Source of the DNA: Naegleria gruberi
Lineage: Eukaryota
Reading direction: 5' to 3' (one strand)
Length of the DNA: 64,000 nt
Assembly: GCA_000004985.1 (NCBI GenBank)
Contig: GG738932.1
The translations under genes and the position numbers were made by a program. Position 1 is the stretch's first letter. The number at the start of each line of letters is the position of its first letter. Of the stretch, positions 3,647 to 29,300 are shown piece after piece. The notes below the pieces were generated by a model. The model ran no database searches. It saw only the letters and a list, made by a program, of their open reading frames with translations, and was not told the DNA's origin.

Positions 3647-4564
3647 TCTTTGTATTGTTGATGATGATGAAACTCTATATGGGATGACTACTAGTTCCCT
3701 CTATATTGAAAGATGAGTAGATATCTATTTAAATCGGGATGGATAATGACTTGTTGTTGCTCCAGAGAGAGATGTATTCAGGTAAGTCACTTTATTCGGG
3801 TGTGTTTGTTGTTCTATGAATAAAATTATTTTTTTTTGAAGTGAATTTGTTGAAGTTTGCTGAGAAGTTTTCTTTTTTTTGAATATTTTTCAAAGTTATT
3901 TTTGGATCGTGTTGAAGAATGCATTCTTGATTTCAATGTACAATTTTATTTGTTGGTGAAGCTAATAAAAGAATTGATGAAGAGAATTCCCTTTAGATAG
4001 AAGATATTGGAATTAGTGTTGGAATGCTGATTGATGAATTTGTATTATCCAAAGATTAAATCTTGTTTTGCCACAAGTTACCGTTGCATAATTTCTTTTT
4101 GCAAATTAAAAAAAAATTACAGCAAGCCATCACACAGCAAAGAATATTTCATCCACATCCAATGGATTCTTAATTCTGTTCTTGTTAAAAGGTCAAAACA
4201 ATCTTTTACGCAAGCTAAAGCACAACATTTTTACTGGGTAACATGGCCTCCATTGCATCATCAACAATGTTCATCAAAGCCACATGTCGTATCAAAAGGT
4301 TCAACTTGTGGTCGTTCTCGTCCTCCAGTAATATCAAAAAGGAAGAGCAGTAGAAAAGACAGTCAATGTTTCGGGAGATGATAATAGTGGTCGTTTCAAT
4401 CTTCTGCTCCTCTTGAGGTTCTAATCAAATTCCATCTTGTAAATCTTAAAAATAATTTATTAAAAAAAAATTGAACAGATCATCACACAACTATTGTGAT
4501 TTTTATCATCAGTTTTAAATAATAATAATAGAAAAATACTTTTTAAAAATCATCACAGTACAGG

Positions 4565-7857: not shown

Positions 7858-8067
7858 GATTTGAGCTATTATTCTCTCGAGGTGATGTATTTTTCTTATT
7901 AAATCCTCAAGTTATTATCGTCGACAAGTGAGAATAACTACTGATGATGACGTAAACAGGAGAGAGTAATCTTCTTTTCAATTAGAGATTATATCCACCA
8001 CACTATTTTCCTCAATCAATTCCTGAGAGATAGAACAGCTAATTTTTTTTTTGGGTTTTTTCAAGAA

Positions 8068-8080: not shown

Positions 8081-8749
8081 TTTGCTGTAGATGCATCTAA
8101 GCGTTATTGTTGTTGAAAATGTAGATTTGTTGATCCAAAATATATAACTATGATGTAATTATTGTCTTGTTGTTATTGTTCAAGGGACAAATTACCATTG
8201 AAACTGCCTCACGAACGAACTGTTTTCAACCTTTTACCACCACTGTGTGTTTATTTTAAACGCAACAATTACCTCAAACCCTCAACAATGTAATAAACAA
8301 GGAAATTCGTATGGAGAATTGTTCCTGTCCAATAGATATGATGATTCTTAATTGTTGATTATATGCTAATTTTCATCCATTGAGAAGGATGCATGCTCTA
8401 CTCCAATATAAAATGAAAGGAAGTAACAAGTTTTGGAAAATGTACAACAAGTTTCATAATCCATCGATTCAACAACTGTACGACCCTCAACAGAACCAAC
8501 CTCTCTTCTAACTGAACAACGATCGTAAATTACAATTTATATTATCTTCTTGTGATGATGGGAAGTGATGATTCTTTAATAACACTACCTTTCAAAAAAT
8601 CAAAAAACAAAAACTTGATACATTCTTTCTTGTCATTATTCCTCATCACAATAAATTCATCATCATCAAGTTTATTATAATTTTTTTAAAACAATTTCAT
8701 AACGGAACTATTTGGAGCCTTAAAATTATTCCTTACATTTTTTAAAAAA

Positions 8750-10441: not shown

Positions 10442-10447
10442 TAATTC

Positions 10448-10453: not shown

Positions 10454-10467
10454 TAATTTATGTACAA

Positions 10468-10938
10468 TTATTGTTCTAGAAGTTTGGGTAATTTTTCCTT
10501 CGCCATATCTTTGATTTCCTGTTTGATTTGTGACTCTGATTTTCCTTCTCTATTCTTCATAATTTCTGGTCTTATTTTCTCGATGTGTTCCTTTAATAAT
10601 TTACTGTATGGATTATTTTCCAAATTTTTCGAATGTTTTGGATTATTTCTAATAAGATACATGGCAATCCAATTAATCGGATCGATCTTTGAGTAGATAG
10701 TACTCTTTAATTTTTCATATTCTTGTTCCTCTTCCGATTTCGGATCAACTGTTGAATACTCCTTTAATAAGGATTGAAAAGCAGGAATCAGCACTCCCAA
10801 AATATTTTCCTCCAAATAAAACGACAGCTCATCGCCACCCTCCCGAGCCAATCTAATGGTTGTTTCATCCTCTCCGAGCGATTCCTCAACATGAAAATTG
10901 TATTCGTGATGAAGAGGCGAAGCAAAGTGCTTTTTCAT
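10468..10938 (-). CDS. Dpy-30 (RIIa-like dimerisation/docking) motif protein with a 24-aa acidic insertion between the two motif helices
   Basis: 156-aa ORF. 'YLEENILGVLIPAFQSLLKE' matches the Dpy-30 helix-1 consensus '[20 protein letters not shown]', and 'IDPINWIAMYLIRNNP' matches helix 2 'PNPIEFLASYLLKN'. The two are separated by an in-frame acidic insert (STVDPKSEEEQEYEKLKSTIYSK). The residues encoded by nt 10684-10758 read straight through with no GT…AG intron in frame. Confidence 0.55.
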   Translation of the reverse strand: MKKHFASPLHHEYNFHVEESLGEDETTIRLAREGGDELSFYLEENILGVLIPAFQSLLKEYSTVDPKSEEEQEYEKLKSTIYSKIDPINWIAMYLIRNNPKHSKNLENNPYSKLLKEHIEKIRPEIMKNREGKSESQIKQEIKDMAKEKLPKLLEQ

Positions 10939-11097
10939 TTTTTTAAAGAATTTTTATCGTAGTTATTTTTGGCGCCATTTTAGTCAATCTGAATGGTAAT
11001 TAGTTTAAGATCATAAAATATTAGAATTCAAAGAAGTAAGCGAGCGAGTGATAAATATTTTCATTTTGTTTGCCCACTAAATAATTAACCAAAAAAA
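10939..11097. promoter_or_regulatory. Very short (159 bp) head-to-head bidirectional promoter
   Basis: Divergent start codons at 10938 (-) and 11098 (+). The spacer is AT-rich and contains the GGCGCC palindrome. Confidence 0.4.
10966..10983. promoter_or_regulatory. E2F-like site TTTTTGGCGCCATTTTAG in the 159-bp bidirectional promoter shared by the Dpy-30 gene (-) and the LRR gene (+)
   Basis: TTTGGCGCCA contains the 8-bp palindrome TGGCGCCA. It lies about 30 bp upstream of the minus-strand ATG at 10938 and about 115 bp upstream of the ATG at 11098. It is the same core as the site at 8068-8080. Confidence 0.35.
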
Positions 11098-12705: not shown

Positions 12706-12818
12706 AATTCAATTAAACAATTCCCTTTCCTGGATCAATGAAGATCAAGTTTTACGTCTCTTCCACCCATTTGTTGTTTTGTTTACAACTCAAAGTTCCC
12801 CGCCTTATTGATTTCATC

Positions 12819-13127
12819 TTAGTAATGATCAACCACTTTCATTTTTTTCCTCAGTTCCTTGATTATTCTATCCGAAATATCATCACCAATATAAAGTTTC
12901 CTCAGCATTCCACTAATTGCCTCGAGTCCTTCATTTCCAATTTTATTTCCCGAAAGGTTTAGTTTGGTTAAATTTTCCATCCCACTTAATGATTTTGCTC
13001 CCTCAATTCCAATAGTACTGTCATAGATACGGAGATTAGTCAATTGATTTAGTTCACTTATTATTTTAGCTCCTGAATCTCCAATTTGATTATCACTAAT
13101 TAAAAGTCTCGTTAATTGTTTCAGTTA
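12819..13127 (-). CDS. Partial LRR protein, C-terminal fragment of a paralogue of the upstream LRR gene, truncated by the 50-N gap (possible pseudogene or flawed gap edge)
   Basis: The minus-strand frame reads …LKQLTRLLISDNQIGDSGAKIISELNQLTNLRIYDSTIGIEGAKSLSGMENLTKLNLSGNKIGNEGLEAISGM…KVVDHY*, the same RI-type repeat family as 11098-12705. The ORF runs into the N spacer at 13128-13177. An in-frame TAA sits at 13125-13127, exactly at the gap edge. This suggests either mis-assembly or error next to the gap, or a disrupted copy. Confidence 0.5.
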
Positions 13128-13177
13128 NNNNNNNNNNNNNNNNNNNNNNNNNNNNNNNNNNNNNNNNNNNNNNNNNN
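13128..13177. other. Assembly gap (50 N spacer)
   Basis: A run of exactly 50 N. It interrupts the minus-strand LRR gene. Confidence 0.99.
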
Positions 13178-13435
13178 GATCACATCAACTTTTTATGACC
13201 CAGTGAATTTGTCAATTGGGCACAAATTCGTGGAGCTGTCCAAACAGAAACTAAAGAAACAGCAAAGCCTATTCCAGTTGTGTGATCTTTCCACATGATC
13301 TCAGTTCATAATAGACACAAGAAAACACAATGCTAATAATAAAAATATAATTTTATTTAATTATTGAAATATGTGGAAAGATTTCCAACCTTGAAATTTA
13401 CCTAGTTGGAAAATTTACCATTAGTGAATTTTATT

Positions 13436-14200
13436 GATGGTGTGATGATGATGACCATTAAGATATTTACCTTAATGATCGGACTTGCTGATGATATTGA
13501 TGATAAAAGATATGATGAAGTGAAAATTCCACAACTCGATGAATACTAAGTGGAAAATTCAAACTCTCTTGATGGTGATATTAGACATCCCTACTAATGA
13601 TACTACGTTGTTGAAATTCAATCATCATGATGAAAATATATGGTGAATGATGAATACACCACCAACAAGGTGAAAACTCCAAATATCCAAAAACTATTAT
13701 TCGGAGTGTTGTTGATGATGTATTTGAATGGTACTATTCGAAGAAAGTTTGGTTGATGATGAAGTACATGTTGAAATATGGTCCATGTAATATTTTGAAT
13801 ATATGCATGTACCTATCTTGATGAAAACAAAATTCCAATCTATGAAATTCGAATATGTATTGCTTTATACTATTACAAATAATCCCACATATGAATTTCT
13901 GATGATGATTCACCAACTTTAATTTTTCCAATAACAAAATTACTATCTAATTCCATAACAATAAACTTCCACATAAAATTACTATTATTACTATTATATT
14001 GATGATGTATAGATGATGAGGTTCAATTCTTGGAGTGGGAAGATGAAGAACCACTCTGAAAATAAACTACTCATAAAATTGATATTTTTTATGAATGCTA
14101 GATACGTCTTTATTGAGTTTGCTGTATGATGAAAGTATAATAAAAATTACTACTGTAACTACTATTTAAATGATGTTGAGATGATGATGTGAAAGTTTGG
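13436..14200 (+). repeat. Non-coding block strongly enriched for strand-specific TGATGA / TTGATGATG motifs (about 17 copies on the plus strand against 2 TCATCA), interspersed with GGAAAATTCC-like imperfect palindromes. It could be a degenerate dispersed repeat, a C/D-box-snoRNA-like cluster, or the edge of a repeat array
   Basis: TGATGA occurs at 13443, 13446, 13489, 13498, 13513, 13628, 13648, 13713, 13754, 13757, 13819, 13900, 13903, 14000, 14014, 14127 and 14182. TTGATGATG(T/A) recurs at 13712, 13753 and 13999. No ORF of convincing length or composition is present. The canonical D box CTGA is rare, occurring only at 13488, 13899 and 14056. Confidence 0.5.
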
Positions 14201-14342
14201 TAGCTTACAGATATGAAACCACTCAAAGAATCATCAAGTCATTGACTTTATTTTTAGGTCTTCATTAAGTTGATCAGGTGAAACGGTTTCAAGATGCTTT
14301 CTTCTCTCACCCAAAGAAGTGATGGTGTTGAAAATAGCATCA

Positions 14343-17300
14343 NNNNNNNNNNNNNNNNNNNNNNNNNNNNNNNNNNNNNNNNNNNNNNNNNNNNNNNNNN
14401 NNNNNNNNNNNNNNNNNNNNNNNNNNNNNNNNNNNNNNNNNNNNNNNNNNNNNNNNNNNNNNNNNNNNNNNNNNNNNNNNNNNNNNNNNNNNNNNNNNNN
14501 NNNNNNNNNNNNNNNNNNNNNNNNNNNNNNNNNNNNNNNNNNNNNNNNNNNNNNNNNNNNNNNNNNNNNNNNNNNNNNNNNNNNNNNNNNNNNNNNNNNN
14601 NNNNNNNNNNNNNNNNNNNNNNNNNNNNNNNNNNNNNNNNNNNNNNNNNNNNNNNNNNNNNNNNNNNNNNNNNNNNNNNNNNNNNNNNNNNNNNNNNNNN
14701 NNNNNNNNNNNNNNNNNNNNNNNNNNNNNNNNNNNNNNNNNNNNNNNNNNNNNNNNNNNNNNNNNNNNNNNNNNNNNNNNNNNNNNNNNNNNNNNNNNNN
14801 NNNNNNNNNNNNNNNNNNNNNNNNNNNNNNNNNNNNNNNNNNNNNNNNNNNNNNNNNNNNNNNNNNNNNNNNNNNNNNNNNNNNNNNNNNNNNNNNNNNN
14901 NNNNNNNNNNNNNNNNNNNNNNNNNNNNNNNNNNNNNNNNNNNNNNNNNNNNNNNNNNNNNNNNNNNNNNNNNNNNNNNNNNNNNNNNNNNNNNNNNNNN
15001 NNNNNNNNNNNNNNNNNNNNNNNNNNNNNNNNNNNNNNNNNNNNNNNNNNNNNNNNNNNNNNNNNNNNNNNNNNNNNNNNNNNNNNNNNNNNNNNNNNNN
15101 NNNNNNNNNNNNNNNNNNNNNNNNNNNNNNNNNNNNNNNNNNNNNNNNNNNNNNNNNNNNNNNNNNNNNNNNNNNNNNNNNNNNNNNNNNNNNNNNNNNN
15201 NNNNNNNNNNNNNNNNNNNNNNNNNNNNNNNNNNNNNNNNNNNNNNNNNNNNNNNNNNNNNNNNNNNNNNNNNNNNNNNNNNNNNNNNNNNNNNNNNNNN
15301 NNNNNNNNNNNNNNNNNNNNNNNNNNNNNNNNNNNNNNNNNNNNNNNNNNNNNNNNNNNNNNNNNNNNNNNNNNNNNNNNNNNNNNNNNNNNNNNNNNNN
15401 NNNNNNNNNNNNNNNNNNNNNNNNNNNNNNNNNNNNNNNNNNNNNNNNNNNNNNNNNNNNNNNNNNNNNNNNNNNNNNNNNNNNNNNNNNNNNNNNNNNN
15501 NNNNNNNNNNNNNNNNNNNNNNNNNNNNNNNNNNNNNNNNNNNNNNNNNNNNNNNNNNNNNNNNNNNNNNNNNNNNNNNNNNNNNNNNNNNNNNNNNNNN
15601 NNNNNNNNNNNNNNNNNNNNNNNNNNNNNNNNNNNNNNNNNNNNNNNNNNNNNNNNNNNNNNNNNNNNNNNNNNNNNNNNNNNNNNNNNNNNNNNNNNNN
15701 NNNNNNNNNNNNNNNNNNNNNNNNNNNNNNNNNNNNNNNNNNNNNNNNNNNNNNNNNNNNNNNNNNNNNNNNNNNNNNNNNNNNNNNNNNNNNNNNNNNN
15801 NNNNNNNNNNNNNNNNNNNNNNNNNNNNNNNNNNNNNNNNNNNNNNNNNNNNNNNNNNNNNNNNNNNNNNNNNNNNNNNNNNNNNNNNNNNNNNNNNNNN
15901 NNNNNNNNNNNNNNNNNNNNNNNNNNNNNNNNNNNNNNNNNNNNNNNNNNNNNNNNNNNNNNNNNNNNNNNNNNNNNNNNNNNNNNNNNNNNNNNNNNNN
16001 NNNNNNNNNNNNNNNNNNNNNNNNNNNNNNNNNNNNNNNNNNNNNNNNNNNNNNNNNNNNNNNNNNNNNNNNNNNNNNNNNNNNNNNNNNNNNNNNNNNN
16101 NNNNNNNNNNNNNNNNNNNNNNNNNNNNNNNNNNNNNNNNNNNNNNNNNNNNNNNNNNNNNNNNNNNNNNNNNNNNNNNNNNNNNNNNNNNNNNNNNNNN
16201 NNNNNNNNNNNNNNNNNNNNNNNNNNNNNNNNNNNNNNNNNNNNNNNNNNNNNNNNNNNNNNNNNNNNNNNNNNNNNNNNNNNNNNNNNNNNNNNNNNNN
16301 NNNNNNNNNNNNNNNNNNNNNNNNNNNNNNNNNNNNNNNNNNNNNNNNNNNNNNNNNNNNNNNNNNNNNNNNNNNNNNNNNNNNNNNNNNNNNNNNNNNN
16401 NNNNNNNNNNNNNNNNNNNNNNNNNNNNNNNNNNNNNNNNNNNNNNNNNNNNNNNNNNNNNNNNNNNNNNNNNNNNNNNNNNNNNNNNNNNNNNNNNNNN
16501 NNNNNNNNNNNNNNNNNNNNNNNNNNNNNNNNNNNNNNNNNNNNNNNNNNNNNNNNNNNNNNNNNNNNNNNNNNNNNNNNNNNNNNNNNNNNNNNNNNNN
16601 NNNNNNNNNNNNNNNNNNNNNNNNNNNNNNNNNNNNNNNNNNNNNNNNNNNNNNNNNNNNNNNNNNNNNNNNNNNNNNNNNNNNNNNNNNNNNNNNNNNN
16701 NNNNNNNNNNNNNNNNNNNNNNNNNNNNNNNNNNNNNNNNNNNNNNNNNNNNNNNNNNNNNNNNNNNNNNNNNNNNNNNNNNNNNNNNNNNNNNNNNNNN
16801 NNNNNNNNNNNNNNNNNNNNNNNNNNNNNNNNNNNNNNNNNNNNNNNNNNNNNNNNNNNNNNNNNNNNNNNNNNNNNNNNNNNNNNNNNNNNNNNNNNNN
16901 NNNNNNNNNNNNNNNNNNNNNNNNNNNNNNNNNNNNNNNNNNNNNNNNNNNNNNNNNNNNNNNNNNNNNNNNNNNNNNNNNNNNNNNNNNNNNNNNNNNN
17001 NNNNNNNNNNNNNNNNNNNNNNNNNNNNNNNNNNNNNNNNNNNNNNNNNNNNNNNNNNNNNNNNNNNNNNNNNNNNNNNNNNNNNNNNNNNNNNNNNNNN
17101 NNNNNNNNNNNNNNNNNNNNNNNNNNNNNNNNNNNNNNNNNNNNNNNNNNNNNNNNNNNNNNNNNNNNNNNNNNNNNNNNNNNNNNNNNNNNNNNNNNNN
17201 NNNNNNNNNNNNNNNNNNNNNNNNNNNNNNNNNNNNNNNNNNNNNNNNNNNNNNNNNNNNNNNNNNNNNNNNNNNNNNNNNNNNNNNNNNNNNNNNNNNN

Positions 17301-20300
17301 NNNNNNNNNNNNNNNNNNNNNNNNNNNNNNNNNNNNNNNNNNNNNNNNNNNNNNNNNNNNNNNNNNNNNNNNNNNNNNNNNNNNNNNNNNNNNNNNNNNN
17401 NNNNNNNNNNNNNNNNNNNNNNNNNNNNNNNNNNNNNNNNNNNNNNNNNNNNNNNNNNNNNNNNNNNNNNNNNNNNNNNNNNNNNNNNNNNNNNNNNNNN
17501 NNNNNNNNNNNNNNNNNNNNNNNNNNNNNNNNNNNNNNNNNNNNNNNNNNNNNNNNNNNNNNNNNNNNNNNNNNNNNNNNNNNNNNNNNNNNNNNNNNNN
17601 NNNNNNNNNNNNNNNNNNNNNNNNNNNNNNNNNNNNNNNNNNNNNNNNNNNNNNNNNNNNNNNNNNNNNNNNNNNNNNNNNNNNNNNNNNNNNNNNNNNN
17701 NNNNNNNNNNNNNNNNNNNNNNNNNNNNNNNNNNNNNNNNNNNNNNNNNNNNNNNNNNNNNNNNNNNNNNNNNNNNNNNNNNNNNNNNNNNNNNNNNNNN
17801 NNNNNNNNNNNNNNNNNNNNNNNNNNNNNNNNNNNNNNNNNNNNNNNNNNNNNNNNNNNNNNNNNNNNNNNNNNNNNNNNNNNNNNNNNNNNNNNNNNNN
17901 NNNNNNNNNNNNNNNNNNNNNNNNNNNNNNNNNNNNNNNNNNNNNNNNNNNNNNNNNNNNNNNNNNNNNNNNNNNNNNNNNNNNNNNNNNNNNNNNNNNN
18001 NNNNNNNNNNNNNNNNNNNNNNNNNNNNNNNNNNNNNNNNNNNNNNNNNNNNNNNNNNNNNNNNNNNNNNNNNNNNNNNNNNNNNNNNNNNNNNNNNNNN
18101 NNNNNNNNNNNNNNNNNNNNNNNNNNNNNNNNNNNNNNNNNNNNNNNNNNNNNNNNNNNNNNNNNNNNNNNNNNNNNNNNNNNNNNNNNNNNNNNNNNNN
18201 NNNNNNNNNNNNNNNNNNNNNNNNNNNNNNNNNNNNNNNNNNNNNNNNNNNNNNNNNNNNNNNNNNNNNNNNNNNNNNNNNNNNNNNNNNNNNNNNNNNN
18301 NNNNNNNNNNNNNNNNNNNNNNNNNNNNNNNNNNNNNNNNNNNNNNNNNNNNNNNNNNNNNNNNNNNNNNNNNNNNNNNNNNNNNNNNNNNNNNNNNNNN
18401 NNNNNNNNNNNNNNNNNNNNNNNNNNNNNNNNNNNNNNNNNNNNNNNNNNNNNNNNNNNNNNNNNNNNNNNNNNNNNNNNNNNNNNNNNNNNNNNNNNNN
18501 NNNNNNNNNNNNNNNNNNNNNNNNNNNNNNNNNNNNNNNNNNNNNNNNNNNNNNNNNNNNNNNNNNNNNNNNNNNNNNNNNNNNNNNNNNNNNNNNNNNN
18601 NNNNNNNNNNNNNNNNNNNNNNNNNNNNNNNNNNNNNNNNNNNNNNNNNNNNNNNNNNNNNNNNNNNNNNNNNNNNNNNNNNNNNNNNNNNNNNNNNNNN
18701 NNNNNNNNNNNNNNNNNNNNNNNNNNNNNNNNNNNNNNNNNNNNNNNNNNNNNNNNNNNNNNNNNNNNNNNNNNNNNNNNNNNNNNNNNNNNNNNNNNNN
18801 NNNNNNNNNNNNNNNNNNNNNNNNNNNNNNNNNNNNNNNNNNNNNNNNNNNNNNNNNNNNNNNNNNNNNNNNNNNNNNNNNNNNNNNNNNNNNNNNNNNN
18901 NNNNNNNNNNNNNNNNNNNNNNNNNNNNNNNNNNNNNNNNNNNNNNNNNNNNNNNNNNNNNNNNNNNNNNNNNNNNNNNNNNNNNNNNNNNNNNNNNNNN
19001 NNNNNNNNNNNNNNNNNNNNNNNNNNNNNNNNNNNNNNNNNNNNNNNNNNNNNNNNNNNNNNNNNNNNNNNNNNNNNNNNNNNNNNNNNNNNNNNNNNNN
19101 NNNNNNNNNNNNNNNNNNNNNNNNNNNNNNNNNNNNNNNNNNNNNNNNNNNNNNNNNNNNNNNNNNNNNNNNNNNNNNNNNNNNNNNNNNNNNNNNNNNN
19201 NNNNNNNNNNNNNNNNNNNNNNNNNNNNNNNNNNNNNNNNNNNNNNNNNNNNNNNNNNNNNNNNNNNNNNNNNNNNNNNNNNNNNNNNNNNNNNNNNNNN
19301 NNNNNNNNNNNNNNNNNNNNNNNNNNNNNNNNNNNNNNNNNNNNNNNNNNNNNNNNNNNNNNNNNNNNNNNNNNNNNNNNNNNNNNNNNNNNNNNNNNNN
19401 NNNNNNNNNNNNNNNNNNNNNNNNNNNNNNNNNNNNNNNNNNNNNNNNNNNNNNNNNNNNNNNNNNNNNNNNNNNNNNNNNNNNNNNNNNNNNNNNNNNN
19501 NNNNNNNNNNNNNNNNNNNNNNNNNNNNNNNNNNNNNNNNNNNNNNNNNNNNNNNNNNNNNNNNNNNNNNNNNNNNNNNNNNNNNNNNNNNNNNNNNNNN
19601 NNNNNNNNNNNNNNNNNNNNNNNNNNNNNNNNNNNNNNNNNNNNNNNNNNNNNNNNNNNNNNNNNNNNNNNNNNNNNNNNNNNNNNNNNNNNNNNNNNNN
19701 NNNNNNNNNNNNNNNNNNNNNNNNNNNNNNNNNNNNNNNNNNNNNNNNNNNNNNNNNNNNNNNNNNNNNNNNNNNNNNNNNNNNNNNNNNNNNNNNNNNN
19801 NNNNNNNNNNNNNNNNNNNNNNNNNNNNNNNNNNNNNNNNNNNNNNNNNNNNNNNNNNNNNNNNNNNNNNNNNNNNNNNNNNNNNNNNNNNNNNNNNNNN
19901 NNNNNNNNNNNNNNNNNNNNNNNNNNNNNNNNNNNNNNNNNNNNNNNNNNNNNNNNNNNNNNNNNNNNNNNNNNNNNNNNNNNNNNNNNNNNNNNNNNNN
20001 NNNNNNNNNNNNNNNNNNNNNNNNNNNNNNNNNNNNNNNNNNNNNNNNNNNNNNNNNNNNNNNNNNNNNNNNNNNNNNNNNNNNNNNNNNNNNNNNNNNN
20101 NNNNNNNNNNNNNNNNNNNNNNNNNNNNNNNNNNNNNNNNNNNNNNNNNNNNNNNNNNNNNNNNNNNNNNNNNNNNNNNNNNNNNNNNNNNNNNNNNNNN
20201 NNNNNNNNNNNNNNNNNNNNNNNNNNNNNNNNNNNNNNNNNNNNNNNNNNNNNNNNNNNNNNNNNNNNNNNNNNNNNNNNNNNNNNNNNNNNNNNNNNNN

Positions 20301-23300
20301 NNNNNNNNNNNNNNNNNNNNNNNNNNNNNNNNNNNNNNNNNNNNNNNNNNNNNNNNNNNNNNNNNNNNNNNNNNNNNNNNNNNNNNNNNNNNNNNNNNNN
20401 NNNNNNNNNNNNNNNNNNNNNNNNNNNNNNNNNNNNNNNNNNNNNNNNNNNNNNNNNNNNNNNNNNNNNNNNNNNNNNNNNNNNNNNNNNNNNNNNNNNN
20501 NNNNNNNNNNNNNNNNNNNNNNNNNNNNNNNNNNNNNNNNNNNNNNNNNNNNNNNNNNNNNNNNNNNNNNNNNNNNNNNNNNNNNNNNNNNNNNNNNNNN
20601 NNNNNNNNNNNNNNNNNNNNNNNNNNNNNNNNNNNNNNNNNNNNNNNNNNNNNNNNNNNNNNNNNNNNNNNNNNNNNNNNNNNNNNNNNNNNNNNNNNNN
20701 NNNNNNNNNNNNNNNNNNNNNNNNNNNNNNNNNNNNNNNNNNNNNNNNNNNNNNNNNNNNNNNNNNNNNNNNNNNNNNNNNNNNNNNNNNNNNNNNNNNN
20801 NNNNNNNNNNNNNNNNNNNNNNNNNNNNNNNNNNNNNNNNNNNNNNNNNNNNNNNNNNNNNNNNNNNNNNNNNNNNNNNNNNNNNNNNNNNNNNNNNNNN
20901 NNNNNNNNNNNNNNNNNNNNNNNNNNNNNNNNNNNNNNNNNNNNNNNNNNNNNNNNNNNNNNNNNNNNNNNNNNNNNNNNNNNNNNNNNNNNNNNNNNNN
21001 NNNNNNNNNNNNNNNNNNNNNNNNNNNNNNNNNNNNNNNNNNNNNNNNNNNNNNNNNNNNNNNNNNNNNNNNNNNNNNNNNNNNNNNNNNNNNNNNNNNN
21101 NNNNNNNNNNNNNNNNNNNNNNNNNNNNNNNNNNNNNNNNNNNNNNNNNNNNNNNNNNNNNNNNNNNNNNNNNNNNNNNNNNNNNNNNNNNNNNNNNNNN
21201 NNNNNNNNNNNNNNNNNNNNNNNNNNNNNNNNNNNNNNNNNNNNNNNNNNNNNNNNNNNNNNNNNNNNNNNNNNNNNNNNNNNNNNNNNNNNNNNNNNNN
21301 NNNNNNNNNNNNNNNNNNNNNNNNNNNNNNNNNNNNNNNNNNNNNNNNNNNNNNNNNNNNNNNNNNNNNNNNNNNNNNNNNNNNNNNNNNNNNNNNNNNN
21401 NNNNNNNNNNNNNNNNNNNNNNNNNNNNNNNNNNNNNNNNNNNNNNNNNNNNNNNNNNNNNNNNNNNNNNNNNNNNNNNNNNNNNNNNNNNNNNNNNNNN
21501 NNNNNNNNNNNNNNNNNNNNNNNNNNNNNNNNNNNNNNNNNNNNNNNNNNNNNNNNNNNNNNNNNNNNNNNNNNNNNNNNNNNNNNNNNNNNNNNNNNNN
21601 NNNNNNNNNNNNNNNNNNNNNNNNNNNNNNNNNNNNNNNNNNNNNNNNNNNNNNNNNNNNNNNNNNNNNNNNNNNNNNNNNNNNNNNNNNNNNNNNNNNN
21701 NNNNNNNNNNNNNNNNNNNNNNNNNNNNNNNNNNNNNNNNNNNNNNNNNNNNNNNNNNNNNNNNNNNNNNNNNNNNNNNNNNNNNNNNNNNNNNNNNNNN
21801 NNNNNNNNNNNNNNNNNNNNNNNNNNNNNNNNNNNNNNNNNNNNNNNNNNNNNNNNNNNNNNNNNNNNNNNNNNNNNNNNNNNNNNNNNNNNNNNNNNNN
21901 NNNNNNNNNNNNNNNNNNNNNNNNNNNNNNNNNNNNNNNNNNNNNNNNNNNNNNNNNNNNNNNNNNNNNNNNNNNNNNNNNNNNNNNNNNNNNNNNNNNN
22001 NNNNNNNNNNNNNNNNNNNNNNNNNNNNNNNNNNNNNNNNNNNNNNNNNNNNNNNNNNNNNNNNNNNNNNNNNNNNNNNNNNNNNNNNNNNNNNNNNNNN
22101 NNNNNNNNNNNNNNNNNNNNNNNNNNNNNNNNNNNNNNNNNNNNNNNNNNNNNNNNNNNNNNNNNNNNNNNNNNNNNNNNNNNNNNNNNNNNNNNNNNNN
22201 NNNNNNNNNNNNNNNNNNNNNNNNNNNNNNNNNNNNNNNNNNNNNNNNNNNNNNNNNNNNNNNNNNNNNNNNNNNNNNNNNNNNNNNNNNNNNNNNNNNN
22301 NNNNNNNNNNNNNNNNNNNNNNNNNNNNNNNNNNNNNNNNNNNNNNNNNNNNNNNNNNNNNNNNNNNNNNNNNNNNNNNNNNNNNNNNNNNNNNNNNNNN
22401 NNNNNNNNNNNNNNNNNNNNNNNNNNNNNNNNNNNNNNNNNNNNNNNNNNNNNNNNNNNNNNNNNNNNNNNNNNNNNNNNNNNNNNNNNNNNNNNNNNNN
22501 NNNNNNNNNNNNNNNNNNNNNNNNNNNNNNNNNNNNNNNNNNNNNNNNNNNNNNNNNNNNNNNNNNNNNNNNNNNNNNNNNNNNNNNNNNNNNNNNNNNN
22601 NNNNNNNNNNNNNNNNNNNNNNNNNNNNNNNNNNNNNNNNNNNNNNNNNNNNNNNNNNNNNNNNNNNNNNNNNNNNNNNNNNNNNNNNNNNNNNNNNNNN
22701 NNNNNNNNNNNNNNNNNNNNNNNNNNNNNNNNNNNNNNNNNNNNNNNNNNNNNNNNNNNNNNNNNNNNNNNNNNNNNNNNNNNNNNNNNNNNNNNNNNNN
22801 NNNNNNNNNNNNNNNNNNNNNNNNNNNNNNNNNNNNNNNNNNNNNNNNNNNNNNNNNNNNNNNNNNNNNNNNNNNNNNNNNNNNNNNNNNNNNNNNNNNN
22901 NNNNNNNNNNNNNNNNNNNNNNNNNNNNNNNNNNNNNNNNNNNNNNNNNNNNNNNNNNNNNNNNNNNNNNNNNNNNNNNNNNNNNNNNNNNNNNNNNNNN
23001 NNNNNNNNNNNNNNNNNNNNNNNNNNNNNNNNNNNNNNNNNNNNNNNNNNNNNNNNNNNNNNNNNNNNNNNNNNNNNNNNNNNNNNNNNNNNNNNNNNNN
23101 NNNNNNNNNNNNNNNNNNNNNNNNNNNNNNNNNNNNNNNNNNNNNNNNNNNNNNNNNNNNNNNNNNNNNNNNNNNNNNNNNNNNNNNNNNNNNNNNNNNN
23201 NNNNNNNNNNNNNNNNNNNNNNNNNNNNNNNNNNNNNNNNNNNNNNNNNNNNNNNNNNNNNNNNNNNNNNNNNNNNNNNNNNNNNNNNNNNNNNNNNNNN

Positions 23301-26300
23301 NNNNNNNNNNNNNNNNNNNNNNNNNNNNNNNNNNNNNNNNNNNNNNNNNNNNNNNNNNNNNNNNNNNNNNNNNNNNNNNNNNNNNNNNNNNNNNNNNNNN
23401 NNNNNNNNNNNNNNNNNNNNNNNNNNNNNNNNNNNNNNNNNNNNNNNNNNNNNNNNNNNNNNNNNNNNNNNNNNNNNNNNNNNNNNNNNNNNNNNNNNNN
23501 NNNNNNNNNNNNNNNNNNNNNNNNNNNNNNNNNNNNNNNNNNNNNNNNNNNNNNNNNNNNNNNNNNNNNNNNNNNNNNNNNNNNNNNNNNNNNNNNNNNN
23601 NNNNNNNNNNNNNNNNNNNNNNNNNNNNNNNNNNNNNNNNNNNNNNNNNNNNNNNNNNNNNNNNNNNNNNNNNNNNNNNNNNNNNNNNNNNNNNNNNNNN
23701 NNNNNNNNNNNNNNNNNNNNNNNNNNNNNNNNNNNNNNNNNNNNNNNNNNNNNNNNNNNNNNNNNNNNNNNNNNNNNNNNNNNNNNNNNNNNNNNNNNNN
23801 NNNNNNNNNNNNNNNNNNNNNNNNNNNNNNNNNNNNNNNNNNNNNNNNNNNNNNNNNNNNNNNNNNNNNNNNNNNNNNNNNNNNNNNNNNNNNNNNNNNN
23901 NNNNNNNNNNNNNNNNNNNNNNNNNNNNNNNNNNNNNNNNNNNNNNNNNNNNNNNNNNNNNNNNNNNNNNNNNNNNNNNNNNNNNNNNNNNNNNNNNNNN
24001 NNNNNNNNNNNNNNNNNNNNNNNNNNNNNNNNNNNNNNNNNNNNNNNNNNNNNNNNNNNNNNNNNNNNNNNNNNNNNNNNNNNNNNNNNNNNNNNNNNNN
24101 NNNNNNNNNNNNNNNNNNNNNNNNNNNNNNNNNNNNNNNNNNNNNNNNNNNNNNNNNNNNNNNNNNNNNNNNNNNNNNNNNNNNNNNNNNNNNNNNNNNN
24201 NNNNNNNNNNNNNNNNNNNNNNNNNNNNNNNNNNNNNNNNNNNNNNNNNNNNNNNNNNNNNNNNNNNNNNNNNNNNNNNNNNNNNNNNNNNNNNNNNNNN
24301 NNNNNNNNNNNNNNNNNNNNNNNNNNNNNNNNNNNNNNNNNNNNNNNNNNNNNNNNNNNNNNNNNNNNNNNNNNNNNNNNNNNNNNNNNNNNNNNNNNNN
24401 NNNNNNNNNNNNNNNNNNNNNNNNNNNNNNNNNNNNNNNNNNNNNNNNNNNNNNNNNNNNNNNNNNNNNNNNNNNNNNNNNNNNNNNNNNNNNNNNNNNN
24501 NNNNNNNNNNNNNNNNNNNNNNNNNNNNNNNNNNNNNNNNNNNNNNNNNNNNNNNNNNNNNNNNNNNNNNNNNNNNNNNNNNNNNNNNNNNNNNNNNNNN
24601 NNNNNNNNNNNNNNNNNNNNNNNNNNNNNNNNNNNNNNNNNNNNNNNNNNNNNNNNNNNNNNNNNNNNNNNNNNNNNNNNNNNNNNNNNNNNNNNNNNNN
24701 NNNNNNNNNNNNNNNNNNNNNNNNNNNNNNNNNNNNNNNNNNNNNNNNNNNNNNNNNNNNNNNNNNNNNNNNNNNNNNNNNNNNNNNNNNNNNNNNNNNN
24801 NNNNNNNNNNNNNNNNNNNNNNNNNNNNNNNNNNNNNNNNNNNNNNNNNNNNNNNNNNNNNNNNNNNNNNNNNNNNNNNNNNNNNNNNNNNNNNNNNNNN
24901 NNNNNNNNNNNNNNNNNNNNNNNNNNNNNNNNNNNNNNNNNNNNNNNNNNNNNNNNNNNNNNNNNNNNNNNNNNNNNNNNNNNNNNNNNNNNNNNNNNNN
25001 NNNNNNNNNNNNNNNNNNNNNNNNNNNNNNNNNNNNNNNNNNNNNNNNNNNNNNNNNNNNNNNNNNNNNNNNNNNNNNNNNNNNNNNNNNNNNNNNNNNN
25101 NNNNNNNNNNNNNNNNNNNNNNNNNNNNNNNNNNNNNNNNNNNNNNNNNNNNNNNNNNNNNNNNNNNNNNNNNNNNNNNNNNNNNNNNNNNNNNNNNNNN
25201 NNNNNNNNNNNNNNNNNNNNNNNNNNNNNNNNNNNNNNNNNNNNNNNNNNNNNNNNNNNNNNNNNNNNNNNNNNNNNNNNNNNNNNNNNNNNNNNNNNNN
25301 NNNNNNNNNNNNNNNNNNNNNNNNNNNNNNNNNNNNNNNNNNNNNNNNNNNNNNNNNNNNNNNNNNNNNNNNNNNNNNNNNNNNNNNNNNNNNNNNNNNN
25401 NNNNNNNNNNNNNNNNNNNNNNNNNNNNNNNNNNNNNNNNNNNNNNNNNNNNNNNNNNNNNNNNNNNNNNNNNNNNNNNNNNNNNNNNNNNNNNNNNNNN
25501 NNNNNNNNNNNNNNNNNNNNNNNNNNNNNNNNNNNNNNNNNNNNNNNNNNNNNNNNNNNNNNNNNNNNNNNNNNNNNNNNNNNNNNNNNNNNNNNNNNNN
25601 NNNNNNNNNNNNNNNNNNNNNNNNNNNNNNNNNNNNNNNNNNNNNNNNNNNNNNNNNNNNNNNNNNNNNNNNNNNNNNNNNNNNNNNNNNNNNNNNNNNN
25701 NNNNNNNNNNNNNNNNNNNNNNNNNNNNNNNNNNNNNNNNNNNNNNNNNNNNNNNNNNNNNNNNNNNNNNNNNNNNNNNNNNNNNNNNNNNNNNNNNNNN
25801 NNNNNNNNNNNNNNNNNNNNNNNNNNNNNNNNNNNNNNNNNNNNNNNNNNNNNNNNNNNNNNNNNNNNNNNNNNNNNNNNNNNNNNNNNNNNNNNNNNNN
25901 NNNNNNNNNNNNNNNNNNNNNNNNNNNNNNNNNNNNNNNNNNNNNNNNNNNNNNNNNNNNNNNNNNNNNNNNNNNNNNNNNNNNNNNNNNNNNNNNNNNN
26001 NNNNNNNNNNNNNNNNNNNNNNNNNNNNNNNNNNNNNNNNNNNNNNNNNNNNNNNNNNNNNNNNNNNNNNNNNNNNNNNNNNNNNNNNNNNNNNNNNNNN
26101 NNNNNNNNNNNNNNNNNNNNNNNNNNNNNNNNNNNNNNNNNNNNNNNNNNNNNNNNNNNNNNNNNNNNNNNNNNNNNNNNNNNNNNNNNNNNNNNNNNNN
26201 NNNNNNNNNNNNNNNNNNNNNNNNNNNNNNNNNNNNNNNNNNNNNNNNNNNNNNNNNNNNNNNNNNNNNNNNNNNNNNNNNNNNNNNNNNNNNNNNNNNN

Positions 26301-29300
26301 NNNNNNNNNNNNNNNNNNNNNNNNNNNNNNNNNNNNNNNNNNNNNNNNNNNNNNNNNNNNNNNNNNNNNNNNNNNNNNNNNNNNNNNNNNNNNNNNNNNN
26401 NNNNNNNNNNNNNNNNNNNNNNNNNNNNNNNNNNNNNNNNNNNNNNNNNNNNNNNNNNNNNNNNNNNNNNNNNNNNNNNNNNNNNNNNNNNNNNNNNNNN
26501 NNNNNNNNNNNNNNNNNNNNNNNNNNNNNNNNNNNNNNNNNNNNNNNNNNNNNNNNNNNNNNNNNNNNNNNNNNNNNNNNNNNNNNNNNNNNNNNNNNNN
26601 NNNNNNNNNNNNNNNNNNNNNNNNNNNNNNNNNNNNNNNNNNNNNNNNNNNNNNNNNNNNNNNNNNNNNNNNNNNNNNNNNNNNNNNNNNNNNNNNNNNN
26701 NNNNNNNNNNNNNNNNNNNNNNNNNNNNNNNNNNNNNNNNNNNNNNNNNNNNNNNNNNNNNNNNNNNNNNNNNNNNNNNNNNNNNNNNNNNNNNNNNNNN
26801 NNNNNNNNNNNNNNNNNNNNNNNNNNNNNNNNNNNNNNNNNNNNNNNNNNNNNNNNNNNNNNNNNNNNNNNNNNNNNNNNNNNNNNNNNNNNNNNNNNNN
26901 NNNNNNNNNNNNNNNNNNNNNNNNNNNNNNNNNNNNNNNNNNNNNNNNNNNNNNNNNNNNNNNNNNNNNNNNNNNNNNNNNNNNNNNNNNNNNNNNNNNN
27001 NNNNNNNNNNNNNNNNNNNNNNNNNNNNNNNNNNNNNNNNNNNNNNNNNNNNNNNNNNNNNNNNNNNNNNNNNNNNNNNNNNNNNNNNNNNNNNNNNNNN
27101 NNNNNNNNNNNNNNNNNNNNNNNNNNNNNNNNNNNNNNNNNNNNNNNNNNNNNNNNNNNNNNNNNNNNNNNNNNNNNNNNNNNNNNNNNNNNNNNNNNNN
27201 NNNNNNNNNNNNNNNNNNNNNNNNNNNNNNNNNNNNNNNNNNNNNNNNNNNNNNNNNNNNNNNNNNNNNNNNNNNNNNNNNNNNNNNNNNNNNNNNNNNN
27301 NNNNNNNNNNNNNNNNNNNNNNNNNNNNNNNNNNNNNNNNNNNNNNNNNNNNNNNNNNNNNNNNNNNNNNNNNNNNNNNNNNNNNNNNNNNNNNNNNNNN
27401 NNNNNNNNNNNNNNNNNNNNNNNNNNNNNNNNNNNNNNNNNNNNNNNNNNNNNNNNNNNNNNNNNNNNNNNNNNNNNNNNNNNNNNNNNNNNNNNNNNNN
27501 NNNNNNNNNNNNNNNNNNNNNNNNNNNNNNNNNNNNNNNNNNNNNNNNNNNNNNNNNNNNNNNNNNNNNNNNNNNNNNNNNNNNNNNNNNNNNNNNNNNN
27601 NNNNNNNNNNNNNNNNNNNNNNNNNNNNNNNNNNNNNNNNNNNNNNNNNNNNNNNNNNNNNNNNNNNNNNNNNNNNNNNNNNNNNNNNNNNNNNNNNNNN
27701 NNNNNNNNNNNNNNNNNNNNNNNNNNNNNNNNNNNNNNNNNNNNNNNNNNNNNNNNNNNNNNNNNNNNNNNNNNNNNNNNNNNNNNNNNNNNNNNNNNNN
27801 NNNNNNNNNNNNNNNNNNNNNNNNNNNNNNNNNNNNNNNNNNNNNNNNNNNNNNNNNNNNNNNNNNNNNNNNNNNNNNNNNNNNNNNNNNNNNNNNNNNN
27901 NNNNNNNNNNNNNNNNNNNNNNNNNNNNNNNNNNNNNNNNNNNNNNNNNNNNNNNNNNNNNNNNNNNNNNNNNNNNNNNNNNNNNNNNNNNNNNNNNNNN
28001 NNNNNNNNNNNNNNNNNNNNNNNNNNNNNNNNNNNNNNNNNNNNNNNNNNNNNNNNNNNNNNNNNNNNNNNNNNNNNNNNNNNNNNNNNNNNNNNNNNNN
28101 NNNNNNNNNNNNNNNNNNNNNNNNNNNNNNNNNNNNNNNNNNNNNNNNNNNNNNNNNNNNNNNNNNNNNNNNNNNNNNNNNNNNNNNNNNNNNNNNNNNN
28201 NNNNNNNNNNNNNNNNNNNNNNNNNNNNNNNNNNNNNNNNNNNNNNNNNNNNNNNNNNNNNNNNNNNNNNNNNNNNNNNNNNNNNNNNNNNNNNNNNNNN
28301 NNNNNNNNNNNNNNNNNNNNNNNNNNNNNNNNNNNNNNNNNNNNNNNNNNNNNNNNNNNNNNNNNNNNNNNNNNNNNNNNNNNNNNNNNNNNNNNNNNNN
28401 NNNNNNNNNNNNNNNNNNNNNNNNNNNNNNNNNNNNNNNNNNNNNNNNNNNNNNNNNNNNNNNNNNNNNNNNNNNNNNNNNNNNNNNNNNNNNNNNNNNN
28501 NNNNNNNNNNNNNNNNNNNNNNNNNNNNNNNNNNNNNNNNNNNNNNNNNNNNNNNNNNNNNNNNNNNNNNNNNNNNNNNNNNNNNNNNNNNNNNNNNNNN
28601 NNNNNNNNNNNNNNNNNNNNNNNNNNNNNNNNNNNNNNNNNNNNNNNNNNNNNNNNNNNNNNNNNNNNNNNNNNNNNNNNNNNNNNNNNNNNNNNNNNNN
28701 NNNNNNNNNNNNNNNNNNNNNNNNNNNNNNNNNNNNNNNNNNNNNNNNNNNNNNNNNNNNNNNNNNNNNNNNNNNNNNNNNNNNNNNNNNNNNNNNNNNN
28801 NNNNNNNNNNNNNNNNNNNNNNNNNNNNNNNNNNNNNNNNNNNNNNNNNNNNNNNNNNNNNNNNNNNNNNNNNNNNNNNNNNNNNNNNNNNNNNNNNNNN
28901 NNNNNNNNNNNNNNNNNNNNNNNNNNNNNNNNNNNNNNNNNNNNNNNNNNNNNNNNNNNNNNNNNNNNNNNNNNNNNNNNNNNNNNNNNNNNNNNNNNNN
29001 NNNNNNNNNNNNNNNNNNNNNNNNNNNNNNNNNNNNNNNNNNNNNNNNNNNNNNNNNNNNNNNNNNNNNNNNNNNNNNNNNNNNNNNNNNNNNNNNNNNN
29101 NNNNNNNNNNNNNNNNNNNNNNNNNNNNNNNNNNNNNNNNNNNNNNNNNNNNNNNNNNNNNNNNNNNNNNNNNNNNNNNNNNNNNNNNNNNNNNNNNNNN
29201 NNNNNNNNNNNNNNNNNNNNNNNNNNNNNNNNNNNNNNNNNNNNNNNNNNNNNNNNNNNNNNNNNNNNNNNNNNNNNNNNNNNNNNNNNNNNNNNNNNNN

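What the first reader, a model, noticed from the sequence alone, without database searches (positions are those of the whole stretch)
13436..14200. Strand-biased TGATGA/TTGATGATG-rich non-coding block next to a ~50-kb unsequenced gap
About 760 bp of non-coding sequence contains about 17 TGATGA hexamers on the plus strand but only 2 of the complement. Several sit in a longer recurring word, TTGATGATG(T/A), at 13712, 13753 and 13999, spaced 40-100 nt apart. Chance expectation for a hexamer in 760 bp is below 1. UGAUGA is the C/C' box of box C/D snoRNAs, and 2 boxes per about 100-nt RNA would give 14-16 motifs for about 7 tandem snoRNAs, so a polycistronic C/D snoRNA-like cluster is one reading. 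Against it, canonical D boxes (CUGA) are scarce: only 3 in the block. The alternatives are a novel degenerate satellite or dispersed repeat marking the border of an unassembled repetitive locus (centromere-proximal or subtelomeric), or a decayed acidic-repeat coding sequence (GAT-GAT = Asp-Asp). Whichever applies, this is the one stretch of the readable window that the gene models do not explain, and it lies directly beside the large gap.
Basis: seen in the sequence. Interest (0 to 1): 0.6.

Follow-up and report, generated by a model that had tools for sequence, protein, structure and literature searches.

The report
Dense one-strand TCATCA motif cluster
This non-coding stretch of the amoeba Naegleria gruberi is not a snoRNA cluster or a satellite, but an unusually dense, one-directional pile-up of a six-base word (TCATCA on the minus strand) that Naegleria genes commonly carry just upstream of their start codons.

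Summary
Window 13436-14200 holds 18 TGATGA on the plus strand against 1 on the minus strand, where dinucleotide shuffles give 3.7 ± 1.8. The window is Naegleria gruberi.

The snoRNA-cluster reading fails:
- Only 3 CTGA are present, and 2 of them overlap CTGATGA.
- The one free CTGA is predicted to sit inside a hairpin.
- No Rfam match reaches threshold.
- The motif copies have no regular spacing.

It is not a satellite either: there is no tandem array and no internal repeat longer than 20 nt.

In 30 upstream regions from three Naegleria species, TCATCA occurs 37 times in the sense orientation of the downstream gene and 8 times antisense. It occurs 0 times in sense orientation in 3' flanks, shows no strand bias in gene bodies, and is absent from Willaertia upstream regions. 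Same-composition control words score 0-1. The block therefore reads as 5'-upstream-type sequence pointing leftward on the minus strand, at 3-4 times the usual density.

Its left end (13379-13546) has a roughly 90% paralogue in another N. gruberi gene model on a 2.2-kb scaffold, so part of it is duplicated DNA.

Function is inferred, not shown. The block lies on a 1,165-nt contig between two N runs, so its context is uncertain. Interest is modest.

The parts
13436..14200 (-). The block. It holds 14 runs of (TCA)2-4 read on the minus strand, which appear as TGATGA on the plus strand. Plus-strand run starts: 13443, 13489, 13498, 13513, 13628, 13648, 13713, 13754, 13819, 13900, 14000, 14014, 14127, 14182.
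   Evidence: There are 18 overlapping hexamers against 1 on the other strand. No consensus extends beyond (A/T)TCATCA(A/T), as shown.
13379..13546 (+). Segment with a paralogue elsewhere in the N. gruberi genome. It also contains the only stretch with gene-like codon usage, a 47-codon ORF at 13406-13549.
   Evidence: phmmer against 1.84 billion representatives gave one hit, P0008 (XP_002668141.1, NAEGRDRAFT_76948). That protein is 164 aa and lies on a 2.2-kb scaffold. tblastn shows 88% identity over residues 107-164, with an in-frame TAG and a 2-codon indel in the window copy. Codon log-odds are 9.5-16.4, as high as in real genes, only for the 120-nt windows starting at 13388-13478.
13453..13480 (-). 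A 12-bp hairpin that forms better in minus-strand RNA, where two G-U pairs become C-A mismatches on the plus strand.
   Evidence: -12.8 kcal/mol and z = -6.1 on the minus strand, against -7.1 kcal/mol and z = -2.5 on the plus strand. It was picked after the fact, and my own estimate is that a stem this long arises by chance in the island about 1 time in 10.
14234..14341 (-). C-terminal 35 codons plus the TGA stop of an unidentified minus-strand gene that runs into the large N run.
   Evidence: It is not the Dus gene that occupies this position in N. lovaniensis and N. fowleri.
14109..14114 (-). AATAAA about 120 nt after that stop codon, a possible poly(A) signal of the right-hand gene.
   Evidence: Read directly from the sequence. 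Its function is inferred only.
12819..13127 (-). An LRR_6-type leucine-rich-repeat gene fragment that ends in the 50-nt N run, with an in-frame TAA at 13125-13127.
   Evidence: No annotated protein was found for it.
13128..13177 (.). A 50-nt N run, the assembly gap to the left of the island.
14343..64000 (.). A 49,658-nt N run to the right of the island.
   Evidence: Whether it is a true gap or masking cannot be told from the window.
3659..3670 (-). Comparison copy: (TCA)4, sense to the capping-enzyme gene, ending 13 nt upstream of its ATG.
4480..4555 (+). Comparison copies: three TCATCA at -85, -59 and -15 relative to the Snf7 ATG, all in sense orientation.
7942..7950 (-). Comparison copy: (TCA)3, sense to the DYRK-type kinase gene, at -93 to -85. 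Clusters are also present upstream of the orthologues in N. lovaniensis and N. fowleri.
8643..8668 (+). Comparison copies: TCATCA and (TCA)4, sense to the IQ-motif gene, at -107 to -82.

Best explanation
The block is non-coding spacer DNA built as an unusually dense, single-orientation (homotypic) cluster of the short word (A/T)TCATCA(A/T), read on the minus strand.

In Naegleria this word is a common, orientation-dependent element of the few hundred bases upstream of start codons. I take it to be an initiator-like, promoter-proximal or 5'-leader element. The block is therefore 5'-upstream-type sequence set up for leftward, minus-strand transcription. It would serve a gene hidden in or near the left gap, or possibly a non-coding minus-strand transcript.

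At least its left end is a recently duplicated segment that also exists elsewhere in the genome.

Shown: the enrichment, the strand bias, the genus-wide link between motif orientation and gene orientation, and the paralogue.

Inferred: that the motif acts in transcription initiation or in the leader, and that this particular cluster is active.
For: Organism: the window is N. gruberi.

General rule, from 30 upstream regions (5,556 nt) of N. gruberi, N. lovaniensis and N. fowleri:
- TCATCA occurs 37 times in sense and 8 times antisense. Counted by hand from the table, that is 26 sense runs against 6 antisense. 15 of 30 genes have at least one sense copy, at positions -8 to -300.
- Same-composition control words TACTAC, ACTACT and CTACTA occur 1, 0 and 0 times.
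- In divergent spacers the copies on each side point toward the nearer gene.
- 3' flanks hold 0 sense copies in 2,336 nt. Gene bodies hold 54 against 51, so no bias.
- Willaertia magna upstream regions hold 0 copies in 2,140 nt.
- Orthologous kinase promoters keep clusters in all three Naegleria species, at shifted positions.

The block itself:
- It shares the other sense-biased words of upstream regions, such as TTCATC, TTTCAT, CATCAT and TCAACA, and the same excess of CAT over ATG. It also carries CATCAA 7:0, and TCATCAA-type copies recur in the other Naegleria promoters read.
- It has no long repeat unit, so the copies are independent occurrences of a short word.
Against: - No gene start is visible at the usual distance. 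The nearest TCATCA run is 265 nt from the left gap edge. The 13178-13435 stretch has no convincing ORF and poor codon scores.
- The neighbouring LRR fragment has an in-frame stop and may be a pseudogene.
- The density is 3-4 times that of ordinary upstream regions, over 765 nt rather than 100-200 nt, so it is not a typical promoter.
- The island is a 1,165-nt contig between gaps, so its placement could be wrong.
- In the paralogous copy the neighbouring gene fragment (Old-Yellow-Enzyme-like exon 1) lies on the other strand relative to the motif.
- No transcription start, RNA or binding data were available.
- The sample is 30 genes, and many of them are orthologues of each other.
Confidence: 0.45

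Rival explanations
1. The block is a fragment of a low-copy dispersed repeat or mobile element, or a segmental duplication, lying at the edge of a repeat-rich region that failed to assemble. On this reading the motif richness is a property of that element. This is not exclusive of the main explanation.
For: - 13379-13546 has a roughly 90% paralogue in NAEGRDRAFT_76948 on a 2.2-kb scaffold, next to a different gene fragment.
- The block sits on a 1,165-nt contig flanked by N runs.
- Synteny with N. lovaniensis and N. fowleri breaks exactly here.
- The neighbouring LRR copy looks damaged.
Against: - Only one other copy is known, and only for 170 nt.
- No terminal repeats, no transposase or reverse-transcriptase remnants, and no similarity to the other Naegleria loci were found.
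- The scan of JGI metagenome contigs returned only chance 22-mers.
- The copy could be a divergent haplotype rather than a repeat.
Confidence: 0.2
2. The block is functionless cryptically simple sequence. Replication slippage of (TGA)n seeds and their decay produced many short runs, and the strand bias is a historical accident.
For: - The runs are (TGA)2-4.
- One-mismatch variants are 4 times enriched on the same strand.
- No extended consensus surrounds the core.
- Other short simple tracts are present, such as ATTACTATT x2.2 at 13978-13997.
Against: - Only 105 of 765 nt lie in the runs. The runs are separated by 10-110 nt of unrelated sequence.
- Slippage does not explain why the same word is tied to gene orientation upstream of genes in three species, nor why it is absent from 3' flanks and from Willaertia.
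Confidence: 0.15
3. The block is a decayed plus-strand coding sequence for an acidic protein (GAT-GAT = Asp-Asp), now broken by frameshifts and stops.
For: - The 120-nt windows starting at 13388-13478 have codon log-odds as high as real genes, in the frame of a 47-codon ORF.
- The paralogous copy is read as an exon in a JGI gene model.
- Peptide-like words such as DDEV..W recur in plus-strand frames.
Against: - The motif occupies all three phases, by position arithmetic.
- The rest of the block scores like intergenic DNA.
- A search of 1.84 billion representative proteins found only that single ab initio model. Nothing turned up from N. fowleri, N. lovaniensis or Willaertia.
- The high codon score is largely circular, because GAT and GAA codons are what the motif consists of.
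Confidence: 0.12
4. The block is a tandem, polycistronic cluster of box C/D snoRNAs on the plus strand, with TGATGA serving as the C and C' boxes.
For: - Many RUGAUGA-like words lie on one strand.
- By general knowledge, relatives of Naegleria in Discoba (Euglena, trypanosomatids) do carry snoRNA genes in clusters.
- There are weak Rfam C/D hits at 13997-14084, 14010-14060 and 13442-13492, with E 4.5-8.
Against: - Only 3 CTGA are present, and 2 of them are part of CTGATGA, so at most one RNA could have a D box.
- The free CTGA at 14056 is predicted to be paired inside a 9-bp hairpin, and no D' box lies at the right spacing (and by reading the sequence).
- The terminal stems found are short and made of the low-complexity word itself.
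- Spacing is irregular, from 14 to 113 nt.
- Rfam hits of the same strength occur in coding regions.
- The plus-strand fold has z = -0.9.
- The same word is a general upstream feature of protein-coding genes.
Confidence: 0.03

Closest known systems
Initiator (Inr) elements of protists and metazoa, for example the Trichomonas vaginalis Inr TCA(+1)YW bound by IBP39, and the metazoan YYA(+1)NWYY (from my own knowledge)
   Same: - It is a short pyrimidine-C-A word.
- It is strictly orientation-dependent.
- It lies within tens of bases upstream of the ATG in many genes, and can be as close as -8 to -24.
- It is lineage-specific.
   Different: - The sequence is TCATCA, often iterated as (TCA)2-4, not TCAYW.
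- Copies spread out to -300 and are often multiple per gene.
- No transcription-start data show that transcripts begin in it.
- In the block there are 14 runs over 765 nt with no recognisable gene start.
Homotypic clusters of transcription-factor binding sites in promoters and enhancers (from my own knowledge)
   Same: There are many copies of one short word at irregular spacing, with no larger repeat unit, at a density well above the local background.
   Different: All copies but one share a single orientation. No binding factor is known. The target gene has not been identified.
Box C/D snoRNA gene clusters of Euglenozoa and plants
   Same: The RUGAUGA word is repeated on one strand of a non-coding region.
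   Different: There are no D boxes, no terminal stems, no unit length and no covariance-model match.
Cryptically simple sequence, or decayed trinucleotide microsatellite
   Same: There are short (TGA)n runs plus many one-mismatch variants.
   Different: The runs cover only 14% of the block. The word shows gene-linked orientation across three species, which slippage alone does not predict.

Membership tests
Box C/D snoRNA (cluster) | C box RUGAUGA near the 5' end | tested here: met
   There are 18 TGATGA on the plus strand. This feature alone is not specific.
Box C/D snoRNA (cluster) | D box CUGA near the 3' end of each RNA, 50-200 nt after the C box | tested here: not met
   Only 3 CTGA are present, and 2 overlap CTGATGA. 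About 7 RNAs would need about 7 D boxes.
Box C/D snoRNA (cluster) | A terminal stem of 4-5 bp that brings the C and D boxes together into a kink-turn | tested here: not met
   The stems found are made of the TGATGA/TCATCA-like low-complexity word itself. The free CUGA at 14056 is predicted to be paired in an internal hairpin.
Box C/D snoRNA (cluster) | Match to a curated covariance model | tested here: not met
   Rfam 15 in E-value mode gave best C/D hits of 15.9-18.4 bits against gathering scores of 40, with E 4.5-8.
Box C/D snoRNA (cluster) | A guide of at least 10 nt complementary to rRNA, ending 5 nt upstream of D or D' | not testable with these tools
   No Naegleria rRNA sequence could be fetched.
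Tandem satellite / minisatellite | Head-to-tail copies of a unit | tested here: not met
   TRF found only two tiny arrays, 9 nt x2.2 and 11 nt x2.0. The self-BLAST longest match is 20 nt.
Dispersed repeat / transposable element | Several copies at unrelated genomic sites | tested here: inconclusive
   One paralogous copy of 13379-13546 is known, and only through a gene model. The N. gruberi genome could not be searched as DNA.
Dispersed repeat / transposable element | Terminal repeats, target-site duplication or element-encoded proteins | tested here: not met
   No long direct or inverted repeats were found. No ORF has a protein-family match. The island is cut by gaps on both sides, so its ends are not visible.
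Protein-coding gene or pseudogene (acidic repeat) | A consistent reading frame with gene-like codon usage | tested here: not met
   Only the 120-nt windows starting at 13388-13478 score like genes. Elsewhere the scores match intergenic DNA. The motif occupies all three phases.
Protein-coding gene or pseudogene (acidic repeat) | Homologous proteins in relatives | tested here: not met
   There is a single hit in 1.84 billion representatives, an ab initio N. gruberi model.
Oriented core-promoter / initiator-like element | Orientation tied to the direction of the downstream gene | tested here: met
   Across three Naegleria species the count is 37 sense against 8 antisense. The copies in divergent spacers point toward the nearer gene.
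Oriented core-promoter / initiator-like element | Restricted to the 5' side of genes | tested here: met
   5' flanks hold 6.7 copies per kb in sense. 3' flanks hold 0 in 2,336 nt. Gene bodies hold 1.1 per kb on each strand.
Oriented core-promoter / initiator-like element | Coincides with mapped transcription start sites, or is required for initiation | not testable with these tools
   No 5'-end or RNA data were available, and no paper on Naegleria promoters was found.
Oriented core-promoter / initiator-like element | For this block, a gene start downstream at the usual distance | tested here: inconclusive
   No convincing start lies in 13178-13435. The sequence continues into a gap.

The most novel reading that the evidence does not exclude
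TCATCA / (TCA)n is a previously undescribed, Naegleria-specific, orientation-dependent initiator or 5'-leader element used by about half of the genes. On this reading the block is a 'super-cluster' of it, driving strong or dispersed minus-strand transcription, for example of an unannotated non-coding RNA or a gene lost in the gap, and able to spread by duplication.
Probability: 0.3. Interest if true: 0.5.

Novelty: new member of a known kind. Interest (0 to 1): 0.3.

Why it matters
The block on its own matters little. It is a small non-coding island between assembly gaps.

The wider pattern is more useful. Almost nothing appears to be published on promoter architecture in Naegleria, a genus that includes the brain-eating N. 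fowleri and is hard to manipulate genetically. A short, oriented word specific to the 5' side of genes, shared by three species and absent from the sister genus Willaertia, is a concrete candidate for a core-promoter or leader element. It could help predict gene starts and strand, and help design expression constructs.

The result also removes a tempting but wrong snoRNA annotation.

Tried and rejected
- Rfam E-value scan of the whole readable window: only chance-level hits.
- tRNA scan: none found.
- My own C/D scan on both strands: every candidate hangs on the same 3 CTGA.
- TRF, the repeat finder and self-BLAST: no repeat unit.
- Alignment of the flanks of all 14 runs: no consensus beyond the core.
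- Exact look-ups of block ORFs (47, 67 and 34 aa), of the 535-aa LRR ORF and of P0008 in public assemblies, meant to bridge the gaps: nothing on record.
- Protein search with the LRR fragment: no hit.
- Protein search with a concatenated six-frame query of the island: no hit, and even P0008 was missed, so this run is uninformative.
- Metagenome scan with a 22-mer from the paralogous segment: 15 loci, all matching only 22-28 nt, so chance.
- BLASTN of the island against the N. lovaniensis and N. fowleri loci and the rest of the window: nothing.
- The idea that the right-hand gene is the syntenic Dus gene: rejected by translation.
- Literature searches for Naegleria promoter motifs, snoRNAs, initiators and TCATCA: nothing relevant found.
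- Whole-block RNA folding: the plus strand is unremarkable (z = -0.9). The minus strand gives z = -3.6 on 20 shuffles, mostly from short palindromes. I do not read it as a structured RNA.

Full report
**Observation.** The readable part of the window is 1-13127 and 13178-14342. The rest is N: 50 nt at 13128-13177 and 49,658 nt from 14343. In 13436-14200 TGATGA occurs 18 times on the plus strand, in 14 separate (TGA)2-4 runs, and its complement occurs once. Mononucleotide shuffles give 0.3 copies. Dinucleotide-preserving shuffles give 3.7 ± 1.8, with a maximum of 11 in 2000. One-mismatch variants are also enriched 4-fold, on the plus strand only. TTGATGATG is at 13712, 13753 and 13999. CTGA occurs three times, and two of those are part of CTGATGA.

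**Organism and context.** The 563-aa IQ-motif ORF at 8750-10441 is 100% identical to a predicted protein of Naegleria gruberi. It is 74-75% identical to its N. lovaniensis and N. fowleri orthologues. The left 11 kb of the window holds long intronless genes:
- a capping enzyme, Snf7, a DYRK-type kinase, the IQ protein and a 156-aa protein;
- a 535-aa LRR_6 gene and, on the minus strand, an LRR_6 fragment at 12819-13127. This fragment runs into the 50-nt gap and has an in-frame TAA at the gap edge.

At the right end of the island, 14237-14341 encodes the last 35 residues of a minus-strand gene. Its stop is at 14234-14236, and an AATAAA follows about 120 nt later. In N. lovaniensis and N. fowleri the 155-158-aa gene is followed by Dus and a GH38 mannosidase. 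The LRR genes and the island are therefore a synteny break specific to N. gruberi.

**snoRNA cluster.** This reading is rejected.
- Rfam 15 in permissive mode gives only C/D-box hits of 15.9-18.4 bits (E 4.5-8) in the block. C/D hits of similar chance-level E-values (2.7-7) fall in coding regions elsewhere in the window.
- A scan for C box, then 35-200 nt, then CTGA, with a terminal stem, finds candidates only around the three CTGA. Their 'stems' are made of the low-complexity word itself, and the minus strand has no candidates.
- The only free-standing CTGA (14056) is predicted to be paired in a 9-bp hairpin, and no D' box sits at the required spacing.
- Spacing between runs ranges irregularly from 14 to 113 nt.
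- Plus-strand RNA of the block folds no better than shuffles (z = -0.9).
- Complementarity to rRNA could not be tested, because no Naegleria rRNA was available.

**Satellite or repeat unit.** This reading is also rejected. TRF finds only two trivial arrays. The longest self-BLAST match is 20 nt. Aligning the 14 runs shows no consensus beyond (A/T)TCATCA(A/T). The copies are independent occurrences of a short word.

**Coding relic.** This reading is mostly rejected.
- Codon-usage log-odds trained on the window's genes are gene-like only for the 120-nt windows starting at 13388-13478, in the frame of a 47-codon ORF. Elsewhere the block scores like other intergenic DNA.
- The score is partly circular, since GAT and GAA are the motif.
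- The motif sits in all three phases.

A phmmer search of that ORF against 1.84 billion representative proteins gave one hit, P0008 (XP_002668141.1, NAEGRDRAFT_76948). This is a 164-aa N. gruberi model on a 2.2-kb scaffold. Its residues 107-164 match window 13379-13546 at 88%. The window copy has an in-frame TAG and a 2-codon indel. The model's N-terminus is a weak Old-Yellow-Enzyme exon-1 match. So at least 170 nt of the region, including six of the TGATGA, exist as a roughly 90% paralogue, or a divergent haplotype, in a different context. No homologue exists in other Naegleria proteomes, which argues against a real gene.

**What the word is in Naegleria.** In the window's two divergent spacers, TGATGA lies next to the minus-strand gene and TCATCA next to the plus-strand gene. 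The orthologous spacers in N. lovaniensis and N. fowleri show the same pattern. The pooled counts are:

| Region | Length | Sense TCATCA | Antisense (TGATGA) |
|---|---|---|---|
| 30 upstream regions, three Naegleria species | 5,556 nt | 37 | 8 |
| 3' flanks | 2,336 nt | 0 | 2 |
| Gene bodies | 46.9 kb | 54 | 51 |
| 14 Willaertia magna upstream regions | 2,140 nt | 0 | 0 |

- Counted by hand from the table, the upstream copies form 26 sense runs and 6 antisense runs. Four of the six antisense runs lie in short divergent spacers, where they are sense for the other gene.
- 15 of 30 genes have at least one sense copy, at positions -8 to -300.
- Same-composition control words (TACTAC, ACTACT, CTACTA) occur 1, 0 and 0 times.
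- The kinase promoter keeps clusters in all three Naegleria species, at shifted positions.

TCATCA is therefore an orientation-dependent word specific to the 5' side of Naegleria genes.

**Reading of the block.** On the minus strand the block looks like an exaggerated upstream region. It has the same core word and the same companion words (TTCATC, TTTCAT, CATCAT, TCAACA). It also has the same excess of CAT over ATG. Its density is 3-4 times the upstream norm: 24.8 per kb against 6.7 per kb. It is more than twice the maximum of any other 765-nt window in 57 kb of Naegleria DNA.

My best explanation (confidence about 0.45) is a homotypic cluster of this upstream, initiator-like or leader element, oriented for leftward minus-strand transcription and partly made of recently duplicated DNA. 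The weak points are these:
- No gene start is visible within the usual distance.
- The neighbouring LRR copy may be dead.
- The island's placement is uncertain.
- There are no RNA or 5'-end data.

A dispersed repeat or element fragment (0.2) is a compatible alternative. Functionless slippage (0.15), a coding relic (0.12) and snoRNAs (0.03) are less likely.

**Comparison with known systems.** The word behaves most like an initiator-type element. By my own knowledge, the Trichomonas Inr TCA(+1)YW and the metazoan YYANWYY are also short, oriented pyrimidine-C-A words close to the ATG. It differs from them in sequence, in being iterated and in its wider spread. Whether transcripts start in it is untested. 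The multi-copy arrangement resembles homotypic binding-site clusters. I found no paper describing Naegleria promoter motifs in the searchable library. That is not proof of novelty.

**Verdict.** This is a real, strongly non-random feature. The headline interpretation is wrong, and the likely nature is ordinary non-coding regulatory-type or duplicated DNA. A modestly interesting by-product is a candidate genus-specific oriented upstream element. Interest is 0.3.

Noticed in passing
window 8068-8077 and 10969-10977; L003 9595-9604; L004 9470-9479: An E2F-like palindrome, TTGGCGCCAA, lies in the divergent spacer between the DYRK-type kinase and IQ genes. It is conserved at the orthologous position in N. 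lovaniensis and N. fowleri. A second copy, TTGGCGCCA, lies between the 156-aa gene and the LRR gene. Shuffles expect 0.01 copies in the window.
   Followed up: partly
window 10939-14342 compared with L003 12277-17803 and L004 12261-17906: There is a synteny break. In N. lovaniensis and N. fowleri the small 155-158-aa gene is followed by Dus and a GH38 mannosidase. In N. gruberi it is followed by two LRR_6 genes and the TGATGA island. The capping-enzyme gene is next to Snf7 only in N. gruberi.
   Followed up: partly
window 12819-13127 (-) and 11098-12705 (+): The minus-strand LRR fragment has an in-frame TAA (13125-13127) exactly at the gap edge, where paralogous repeats have Leu or Met. This could be a sequencing error at a contig end or a pseudogene. 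Neither this fragment nor the intact 535-aa LRR ORF was found among annotated proteins.
   Followed up: partly
window 13453-13480 (-): A 12-bp hairpin forms better in minus-strand RNA (-12.8 kcal/mol, z = -6.1) than in plus-strand RNA. It lies inside the segment that is conserved in the paralogue. It was picked after the fact, and I estimate about a 1-in-10 chance of such a stem arising in the island.
   Followed up: partly
window 13436-14200 (-): Minus-strand RNA of the whole block folds with z = -3.6, on only 20 shuffles, while the plus strand gives z = -0.9. Short palindromes such as ATCATCATGATGAT at 13621-13634 probably contribute. This remains unexplained.
   Followed up: no
L001, L002 (ENA ERZ929261, PRJEB11402): An assembly labelled as a metagenome carries short contigs whose Snf7 and IQ proteins are 100% identical to this window's; a kinase and a 156-aa gene sit beside them in the same order. 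The sample therefore contained N. gruberi or a very close strain.
   Followed up: no
L021 (Willaertia magna): The sister genus has no TCATCA or TGATGA at all in 2,140 nt of upstream sequence around the orthologous genes. The upstream word therefore appears specific to Naegleria.
   Followed up: partly
window upstream regions (sense strands): CAACAA (10 sense, 0 antisense in the window; 30 against 11 across three species) and TCAACA (7 against 0) are also strongly sense-biased upstream of genes. This suggests a wider C-over-G, CA-rich character of Naegleria 5' regions.
   Followed up: no
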